Below are positions 60,111 through 61,898 of a stretch of 64,000 bases of DNA, one piece after another (position 1 is the stretch's first letter; the number at the start of each line of letters is the position of its first letter). This DNA comes from Eledone cirrhosa. Its lineage: Eukaryota. The translations under genes and the position numbers were made by a program. The DNA is taken from the NCBI GenBank assembly GCA_964016885.1, contig OZ024745.1, positions 115,630,001-115,694,000 on the forward strand. Direction: 5' to 3'. Under the pieces are notes generated by a model that searched no databases, was not told the DNA's origin, and saw nothing but the letters and a program-made list of their open reading frames with translations.

Positions 60111-60802
60111 CTGTTGGTGGAAATATAATAAATAATAATATACATGAACGTATAGAACAACATTACGATATGCTAGAACATTTAACATTAATAAGACACA
60201 TACCATGAATTGGAATAGTAAGTAGTATATACTCCCTATGTAAAACACAATATCATAAGTGATTGCCTCTTGTCTGTTGAAAACACTCAGAGAAGTCATC
60301 TACTAATACAACCTTCAGTCAAGGAAGGTCTAACATTATATACACTCTGTTATTCACCCTTACCAAACACAATTCTTATCCCATGCTCTACATTTTCCTT
60401 AATTAAAATTATATTTTTCAATACCAGGTGTTATCTGATTATAACCTATGTTGGCAATACTTCATATGTTCTTAAGTAAGACAACTTATACTGTGAAGGA
60501 ATTTATCTATTTGATAACAGCCGACCTCAGATAACATCAGATTCTATAATAGCATTTTCTTGATTGAAATTAATGACATTTAAATTAAAGACGTTCATCA
60601 TAAAGTTATTTAGAAACAGTTGGGTAAATTAAGTTTTAGATACGAGCTTAATAGAAAAAAGTTAGTTGTTTATCAATATCCTTCAAAATGCTTCGTTATG
60701 TTTGAAATAAAATCTAAAAAATATTAGAAATATGATCGCATATCCGATAGCAAATATCCAACATCGCATGAAGTAAATGGCATGGCGTAAACAAATGACG
60801 TC

Positions 60803-60836
<34 letters not shown>

Positions 60837-60842
60837 TAAACA

Positions 60843-60934
<92 letters not shown>

Positions 60935-61110
60935 TATATATATGTATATATATGTATGTATATATATTTGTCATTACCACAACAAGAGTCCGACGAGGTT
61001 TTGATTCCAGAATTAGGCCAGATCGATACAGATCGAACCTTTAGGTGATCAATAGCGAAACGCACGTCACTACTCAATAAACATAATTAAGACATAATAA
61101 ATCGTCCTTA

Positions 61111-61320
61111 TTGGCAGTATCGGTAGAGCGTTGGATGCCACGCTTTGCAGCATAGAGTTACGTCCCTTAACAGTCTGAATTCAAATCCTGCCGAGGTTAA
61201 CTTTGCCTTTCATCCTTACGGGGTCGATAAAATAAAGTACCTGTCACGCACTGCGGTCAATTTAATCGACTTTTCCCTCCCCCCAAAATTGATGGCCTTG
61301 TGCCTAAATAAGAAACCATT
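61111..61320 (+). mobile_element. SINE family B
   Basis: Head TTGGCAGTATCGGTAGAGCG, B-box-like GAATTCAAATC, conserved centre and tail. Confidence 0.85.
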
Positions 61321-61419
61321 ATTATTATTCTTAAACCATTTTAATTAAATGAAAAATATATTTAATAAAATAAATTTGAATGACTAAATATTGTTATTTT
61401 CACTAATTCATTATTCTAG

Positions 61420-61541
61420 CGGCAGTAAAACAACTAAAGTTGATGCTCACTTTGGATCTACACACAAACTAAATTCTACCACTGTGATTCCAGTCAAAAA
61501 ATGGTTTGCTCATCCTAAATACAGAAAAACCAATACTGTTA
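61420..61541 (+). CDS. S1A serine protease exon 3
   Basis: CTAAT branch-like motif and TTCTAG| acceptor; GSKTTKVDAHFGSTHKLNSTTVIPVKKWFAHPKYRKTNTV; A|GTACGT phase-1 donor chosen to match exon 4. Confidence 0.88.
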
Positions 61542-61560
61542 GTACGTATGTTTTCTTATA

Positions 61561-61604
<44 letters not shown>

Positions 61605-61892
61605 GTATTTCAGTAGGAAAGGTAAAGGAAAAGAGAGTGCTCTATGTAGGCTAAAGAGCTTTTTAGTTATGTAAGAAACAACATAAGATAATTATTTCAT
61701 TTACCAGTGTTTTCTTGAAGACAGATATTTATGTCTGTCTTCATTCATCAGAAGAAATAATATCATAAAGTTATTTAGAAACAGTTGGGTAAATTAAGAT
61801 ATTATTTCTTCTGATGAATGAAGACAGACATAAATATCTGACTTCAAGAAACCACTGGGAAATGAAATAATTATCTTATGTTGTTTATTACA

Positions 61893-61898
<6 letters not shown>
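61605..61898. mobile_element. Fold-back cassette with degenerate hammerhead in both arms and a 37-bp loop matching upstream intron
   Basis: Arms 61664-61763 / 61799-61898; loop 61762-61798 identical to 60597-60633; (TA)n on both sides. Confidence 0.75.

What the first reader, a model, noticed from the sequence alone, without database searches (positions are those of the whole stretch)
60597..61898. Fold-back loop is an exact 37-bp copy of host intron sequence 1.2 kb upstream
Seen: ATCATAAAGTTATTTAGAAACAGTTGGGTAAATTAAG occurs at 60597-60633 (intron 2, apparently unique context) and as the entire spacer (61762-61798) between the two hammerhead-bearing arms in intron 3, with a 2-nt AT overlap. 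The family copy at 11172 has different upstream sequence. The capture is perfect while the arms differ at several sites. Inference: the polymerase jumped onto nearby DNA or the host pre-mRNA mid-insertion, giving local sequence capture.
Basis: partly seen in the sequence, partly recalled or inferred. Interest (0 to 1): 0.7.

Follow-up and report, generated by a model that had tools for sequence, protein, structure and literature searches.

The report
Retroelement junction copied nearby host DNA
A small mirror-image jumping-gene insertion carries at its centre an exact 37-letter copy of host DNA from 1.2 kb away, likely picked up by a repair-type template switch when its two halves were joined; it is real but a rare one-off of a kind already known from other retrotransposons.

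Summary
The 37-mer occurs exactly twice in the 3.0-Gb genome, even allowing 3 mismatches: at 60597 and as the centre of a fold-back of a hammerhead-bearing, Penelope-like element. It is not family sequence. One correction: the donor is not unique DNA. It lies in an old dispersed repeat whose other copies differ at 9-13 of these 37 positions, which makes 60597 the source. A short-read contig carries the spacer-to-right-arm junction, arguing against an assembly chimera. The fold-back itself is ordinary: 237 genome-wide. Local host capture is rare: 0 of 145 other fold-backs had a donor within 4-5 kb, though some junctions hold patches copied from the element itself or a sister family. Best reading: a templated insertion made while two cDNA ends were being joined, as known for L1, R2 and polymerase-theta repair, but from a more distant template. 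DNA versus pre-mRNA template, and capture during versus after insertion, cannot be told apart from one event. The perfect match against 4% arm divergence is unremarkable (P about 0.22).

The parts
60597..60633 (+). Donor 37-mer, in the intron upstream of exon B, embedded in an old dispersed AT-rich repeat
   Evidence: 2 hits genome-wide; collinear with other repeat copies, 9-13 differences of 37
60578..60740 (+). Old dispersed repeat that contains the donor (69-73% identity to copies elsewhere)
61555..61601 (.). Left (TA)n target microsatellite
61602..61663 (-). About 62-nt 3' tail, present on the left arm only, shared by many family copies
61664..61763 (-). Left arm: 5'-truncated inverted copy with hammerhead-like core; 2 private substitutions
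61762..61798 (+). Captured spacer: 37-nt match, 35 nt new, 2-nt AT overlap with the left arm, none with the right; its first and last 5 new bases are 4/5 complementary
61799..61898 (+). Right arm: forward 5'-truncated copy without tail, ending at the family's common 3' end; 2 private substitutions
61896..61963 (.). Right (TA)n target microsatellite
59055..59198 (+). Host exon A, trypsin-like protease
   Evidence: PF00089 E 3.5e-10
61420..61541 (+). Host exon B, lying between donor and insertion (open frame, splice sites and phase fit; no Pfam support alone)
63470..63602 (+). Host exon C, trypsin-like protease
   Evidence: PF00089 E 7.1e-05
11173..11268 (+). Solo family copy (its 3' part) with ordinary family upstream sequence

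Best explanation
The centre of a Penelope-like fold-back holds an exact copy of host intron DNA from 1,165 bp upstream, likely made by a brief DNA-templated switch while the element's two cDNA ends were being joined. Shown: the copy, its direction (donor 60597), the two-arm architecture with a tail on one arm only, and the rarity. Inferred: the element cut (TA)n on both strands and primed two cDNAs, one from the tail start and one from the internal start; both stopped at the ATAT at the base of the hammerhead stem, as other copies do; one 3' end primed on nearby genomic DNA with 0-2 nt of homology, copied 35 nt, released, and was sealed to the other end, possibly helped by snap-back on the 4/5 complementary spacer ends. 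The copying enzyme is inferred to be a polymerase-theta/MMBIR-type host polymerase or the RT acting on DNA.
For: 2 hits in 3.0 Gb at up to 3 mismatches, against 817 and 14 hits for two repeat-derived control spacers. Donor collinear with an old repeat across the 37-mer. Right junction present in a short-read contig of run X3. A Penelope-like protein cuts and extends both strands and starts RT at two sites that define the tail (PMC11167929, parts 1-2 of 4 read), matching tail-on-one-arm copies here. Central junctions show re-priming scars: 10 of 90 cores carry a short-range direct repeat of 10 nt or more versus 2 of 180 outer-arm control stretches (controls are shorter, at most 80 nt). A second 37-nt patch at the inversion junction of an RT+GIY-YIG element is copied from its own body 725 nt away (L142:2887-2923), and L142's other fold-back centre is a piece of a sister family. 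Spacer-end complementarity occurs in 2% of AT-preceded local 35-mers (post hoc).
Against: The distance and tract length exceed the reported norms: L1 templates typically within 15 bp (10.1101/2024.08.27.596794), polymerase-theta templates within 30-50 bp with primary tracts rarely over 10 bp (PMC7165422), yeast MMBIR within 100 bp (PMC8421209). The junction with microhomology (left) needs a bottom-strand template that simple resection would not expose, while the geometrically easy route (bottom-strand cDNA on exposed top strand) has no microhomology. 0 of 145 other fold-backs show local host capture, so there is no replicate. No empty allele was available to date the event. No ORF was linked to this exact family.
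Confidence: 0.52

Rival explanations
1. The element first inserted as a near-perfect palindrome centred on ATAT; it later broke at the tip (cruciform or hairpin) and host repair patched the break with 35 nt copied from 1.2 kb upstream.
For: Perfect ATAT-centred palindromes of this family exist (C1:331727845; C2:18149545); ATAT stands on both sides of the insert; spacer 0 of 37 differences against arms 4 of 100 leans slightly toward a later date (at most about 4.5-fold).
Against: No loss of arm sequence around the centre, which break repair usually causes (own knowledge); ATAT is also where independent 5'-truncated copies stop (read by eye); similar patches from element RNA-type donors sit at other central junctions.
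Confidence: 0.25
2. The element's RT, extending the bottom-strand cDNA, jumped without homology onto the host's nascent pre-mRNA (or a fragment ending at 60633), copied 35-37 nt, and was joined to the other cDNA by the AT overlap.
For: Donor and insertion lie in consecutive introns of a plus-strand gene and the copy has the orientation this route needs; zero homology at the right junction fits end-to-end jumping; R2 insertions show 'extra template' RNA junctions (PMC11371274); a sister-family piece at L142's centre could be an RNA jump.
Against: One event has a 50% chance of this orientation; exposed top-strand DNA gives the same product; it needs germline transcription of a trypsin-like gene and an RNA end in mid-intron, neither shown.
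Confidence: 0.18
3. Assembly chimera, chance match, or a shared repeat.
For: Palindromes flanked by (TA)n are hard to assemble; the left junction was not seen in any of 4 runs laid; the sample may be the assembly's own source.
Against: Right junction in an independent short-read contig; control longest matches at most 13 nt versus 37; only 2 hits at up to 3 mismatches.
Confidence: 0.04

Closest known systems
Penelope-like element inverted 5' copy with tail (PMC8557442 passages; PMC11167929 parts 1-2)
   Same: Inverted 5'-truncated copy, tail on one end only, hammerhead in the terminal repeat, microsatellite target.
   Different: Tail is about 62 nt rather than 30-40; the passages read mention no host-derived patch at the inversion junction; no ORF was tied to this family here.
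L1 templated insertions and twin priming with switching (10.1101/2024.08.27.596794; PMC11702581; passages)
   Same: A short non-element genomic segment copied into a retrotransposon insertion; rare (22 instances in a set of about 3,600); junction of two oppositely primed cDNAs.
   Different: Different element class; template 1,165 bp away rather than typically within 15 bp; germline rather than tumour or cell line.
Polymerase-theta templated insertions / SD-MMEJ (PMC7165422, PMC2943611; passages)
   Same: Direct repeat of flanking DNA, AT-rich (28 of 37), 2-nt primer homology, possible snap-back, iterated short copies at other junctions.
   Different: Template far outside the 30-50 bp norm and a 35-nt single tract; distal templates are a small minority class there; enzyme dependence untested.
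R2 PRINT 5' junction classes: snap-back and extra template (PMC11371274; passages)
   Same: cDNA 3' end primes extra synthesis on itself, on nearby DNA or on another RNA before junction formation.
   Different: Engineered system at rDNA; captured RNAs were almost always U6, not the host pre-mRNA at the target.

Membership tests
Penelope-like element | Inverted 5'-truncated copy adjacent to the forward copy | tested here: met
   29 such pairs for this family, 237 across families
Penelope-like element | 3' tail on one end only | tested here: met
   about 62 nt
Penelope-like element | Hammerhead motif in the terminal repeat | tested here: inconclusive
   Core motif seen by eye (consensus recalled), stems I and II fold (z -1.6 and -2.8 for the arms); no Rfam hit; cleavage not testable
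Penelope-like element | Microsatellite/AT-rich target | tested here: met
   (TA)n on both sides and at most copies
Penelope-like element | RT plus GIY-YIG ORF belonging to this family | tested here: inconclusive
   None found upstream of family copies, which extend up to about 0.8 kb. Another hammerhead-motif family has an ORF upstream that matches the window's PLE-like remnants by tblastn but has no Pfam hit (L172); an unrelated fold-back has RVT_1 and GIY-YIG (L142)
L1-type templated insertion | Non-element genomic template under 250 bp copied into the insertion | tested here: met
L1-type templated insertion | Template typically within 15 bp of the site | tested here: not met
   1,165 bp
Polymerase-theta TINS | At least 5 bp repeated from flanking DNA, short primer homology | tested here: met
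   35 nt, 2-nt AT
Polymerase-theta TINS | Template within 50 bp of the break | tested here: not met
   1,165 bp; definition from PMC7165422
Polymerase-theta TINS | Dependence on polymerase theta | not testable with these tools
   needs genetics
RT jump to a cellular RNA | Strandedness fits reverse transcription of a transcript | tested here: met
   sense to the plus-strand host gene if the bottom-strand cDNA was extended; n = 1
RT jump to a cellular RNA | Copying starts at an RNA 3' end; gene transcribed in germline | not testable with these tools
   no RNA run available

The most novel reading that the evidence does not exclude
The Penelope-like RT, stalled at the hammerhead stem, jumped in cis onto the nascent pre-mRNA of the gene it was invading, so fold-back centres are a fossil record of what nucleic acids (own RNA, sister-family RNA, host nascent transcript) were within reach of the integration complex.
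Probability: 0.15. Interest if true: 0.62.

Novelty: new member of a known kind. Interest (0 to 1): 0.3.

Why it matters
How Penelope-like elements form their inverted structures is still described as undefined (PMC8557442). This locus and the survey around it suggest the central junction is a free join of two cDNA ends that re-prime and occasionally reach outside templates, as in L1 and R2. This genome has hundreds of such junctions, so the donor spectrum (own body, sister family, host flank; sense or antisense) is countable with the full assembly. The single event itself has no evident function and is rare.

Tried and rejected
37-mer as element consensus: rejected. 37-mer as a young repeat: rejected. 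Reverse direction, spacer inserted into the upstream intron: rejected because the donor is collinear with an old repeat. Local capture as a general rule: rejected. Set 1 was 99 places (49 of 53 with gap 36-75, 50 of 73 with gap 76-150); 9 were dropped as not true fold-backs; 30 of the 90 had 16 nt or more of private centre and only the focal one matched its flank. Set 2 was 88 places from the first 100 rows of 817; 56 scored as fold-backs, 18 private segments, longest own match 13 nt. 13 short-arm junctions showed no foreign insert by eye. Apparent foreign spacers at L129 and L142 proved repeat-derived, L184's matches a repeat; donors of L062, L145 and L247 were not found within 4-5 kb and were not searched genome-wide. 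An automated arm-boundary caller was contaminated by fold-back references and used only to list candidates. A deletion allele between the two 37-mers as the reading of the X3 contig was set aside because X1 and X2 of the same sample cover both sides at even depth. Left junction not seen in 4 runs, and no RNA holder listed: no evidence either way. Rfam scan empty. Two look-ups of earlier findings returned nothing. Literature searches for a Penelope templated insertion returned one paper (others 27, 28, 35, 42, 71, 73, 74); subscription papers and preprint supplements were not searchable, so absence from print is not established.

Full report
Observation. The 37-mer is an exact direct repeat at 60597-60633 and 61762-61798, 1,165 bp apart, not extendable on either side. 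In the window's own genome (3.0 Gb) these are the only two hits, exact or with up to 3 mismatches. The second copy is the centre of an inverted repeat with 100-nt arms (61664-61763, 61799-61898) that differ at 4 sites; at each site 38-40 of 40 other copies carry one allele, so each arm has 2 private changes. Two bases (AT) are shared with the left arm and none with the right, so 35 nt are new.

The element. The arm family has at least 1,113 candidate places. Copies end in (TA)n either directly or after a tail of about 62 nt, and many have an inverted partner with the tail on one arm only. This matches the described Penelope-like architecture (PMC8557442, passages seen) and the in vitro finding that one such protein cuts and extends both strands and starts RT at two sites delimiting the tail (PMC11167929, parts 1-2 of 4 read). 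The hammerhead is judged from its core motif (recalled) and folding; Rfam gave no hit. No ORF was linked to this exact family, so membership rests on architecture. Fold-backs are common: 237 head-to-head motif pairs within 150 nt versus 1 for the reversed control, and 29 for this family. Family sequence upstream of the arm is not the 37-mer, and several copies also stop at the same ATAT (read by eye), so the symmetric arm ends need no special cause.

Direction. It lies in an old dispersed repeat (60578-60740; 69-73% identity elsewhere). Four other copies align across the 37-mer with 9, 9, 10 and 13 differences. The spacer carries this copy's private state, so 60597 is the source. Donor and insertion are in consecutive introns of a plus-strand trypsin-like gene, with one exon between.

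Artefact test. In short-read contigs of one sample, runs X1 and X2 pass through the donor with both flanks intact, and a contig of X3 runs from donor-upstream sequence through the 37-mer into the right arm. I read the latter as a graph path across the shared 37-mer, which requires the spacer/right-arm junction in the reads. The left junction was not seen in 4 runs, and the sample may be the assembly's source, so this is support against an assembler chimera but not an independent individual.

Generality. I fetched about 5 kb each side of 99 listed places, 90 of them true fold-backs. Only the focal one had a non-element local donor; of 30 with private central sequence, its longest own-flank match was 37 nt, the others at most 12, and control flanks at most 13. 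In 88 copies of a sister family with 4-kb flanks, 56 were fold-backs and none of 18 private segments matched locally beyond 13 nt. So 0 of 145 other fold-backs show local host capture, an upper bound near 2%; donors farther than 4-5 kb were not tested. A blind scan of 1.70 Mb for sharp-edged local exact duplications gave 16, of which by eye only the focal one joins host DNA to an element junction. Related scars do recur: a 37-nt patch at the inversion junction of an RT+GIY-YIG element copied from its own body 725 nt away; a roughly 50-nt piece of a sister family at another centre; and short direct repeats in 10 of 90 centres versus 2 of 180 shorter control stretches, including an iterated 13-mer at L191.

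Timing. Zero differences in 37 nt given 4 in 100 between the arms has P about 0.22, so the perfect capture does not show a later or special event.

Mechanism. I commit to a DNA-templated switch during joining of the two cDNA ends (0.52). Two geometries fit. A top-strand end could prime on the donor by AT, copy 35 nt and snap back on its 4/5 complementary ends (seen in 2% of AT-preceded local 35-mers, post hoc), as in SD-MMEJ (PMC2943611, passages). Or a bottom-strand end could copy exposed top-strand DNA with no homology and close on AT. The second geometry also allows host pre-mRNA as template (0.18). Later breakage of an ATAT-centred palindrome with templated repair gives the same product (0.25). 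All steps beyond the copy, its direction and its rarity are inferred.

Comparison. L1 templated insertions (22 cases, under 250 bp, typically within 15 bp; 10.1101/2024.08.27.596794, passages), templated genomic pieces in L1 insertions (PMC11702581, passages), R2 snap-back and extra-template junctions (PMC11371274, passages), polymerase-theta insertions (PMC7165422, passages) and MMBIR insertions (PMC8421209, passages) are the same kind of event. This one works like them but fails their distance norms, so I do not file it under any one enzyme. A search for Penelope with templated insertion returned only PMC11167929; a retrozyme preprint had no relevant passage. The library is incomplete and preprint supplements were closed.

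Verdict. Real, correctly spotted, rare, and of a known kind; new only in the element class and the long reach. Interest 0.3; about 0.6 if a genome-wide survey showed nascent-RNA capture.

Noticed in passing
window 61960-62334: A second hammerhead-motif fold-back of another family sits in the same (TA)n, directly right of the focal element; its middle is element-derived (96% to L148) and its junction is clean.
   Followed up: partly
L142:2600-4560: Young element with RVT_1 and GIY-YIG ORF and an inverted arm; a 37-nt patch at the junction (2887-2923) copies its own ORF at 3612-3648.
   Followed up: partly
L142:4955-5003: Fold-back centre holds about 50 nt from the 3' part of a sister family with 817 genome hits: capture in trans.
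   Followed up: partly
L191, about 45-110 nt upstream of the anchor near 4084-4173: A 13-nt element motif is iterated about five times at the fold-back junction, like repeated re-priming.
   Followed up: no
L132:3729-3869: Insertion in (TA)n made of a 49-nt exact copy of 5658-5706 (1.9 kb away) plus an inverted copy of 5177-5269; both donors look like local copies of a rarer element.
   Followed up: partly
L090, L123, L146 centres (near 4920-5030): Fold-back centres filled with (TA)n, either target DNA between two insertions or added repeats.
   Followed up: no
L247 (4079-4133), L062 (near 4918-4947), L145 (near 4957-4981): Foreign-looking centres of 24-37 nt with no donor within 4-5 kb; origin unknown.
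   Followed up: partly
window 61852 and 61859 sites of the arms: Each arm carries a private change in the presumed stem III or cleavage triplet, so both ribozymes are predicted impaired (hammerhead rules recalled).
   Followed up: no
window 38352-39818, 43610-45073, 46748-47104: Broken Penelope-like ORF remnants; one has a weak GIY-YIG hit (E 0.0022, below cut-off).
   Followed up: partly
window 29733-31225 and 62483-63262: Long minisatellite arrays, one with open frames on the minus strand.
   Followed up: no
L194:4082-6561: An element with short terminal inverted repeats and an 8-bp duplication splits a family copy; looks like a hAT-type transposon (recalled).
   Followed up: no
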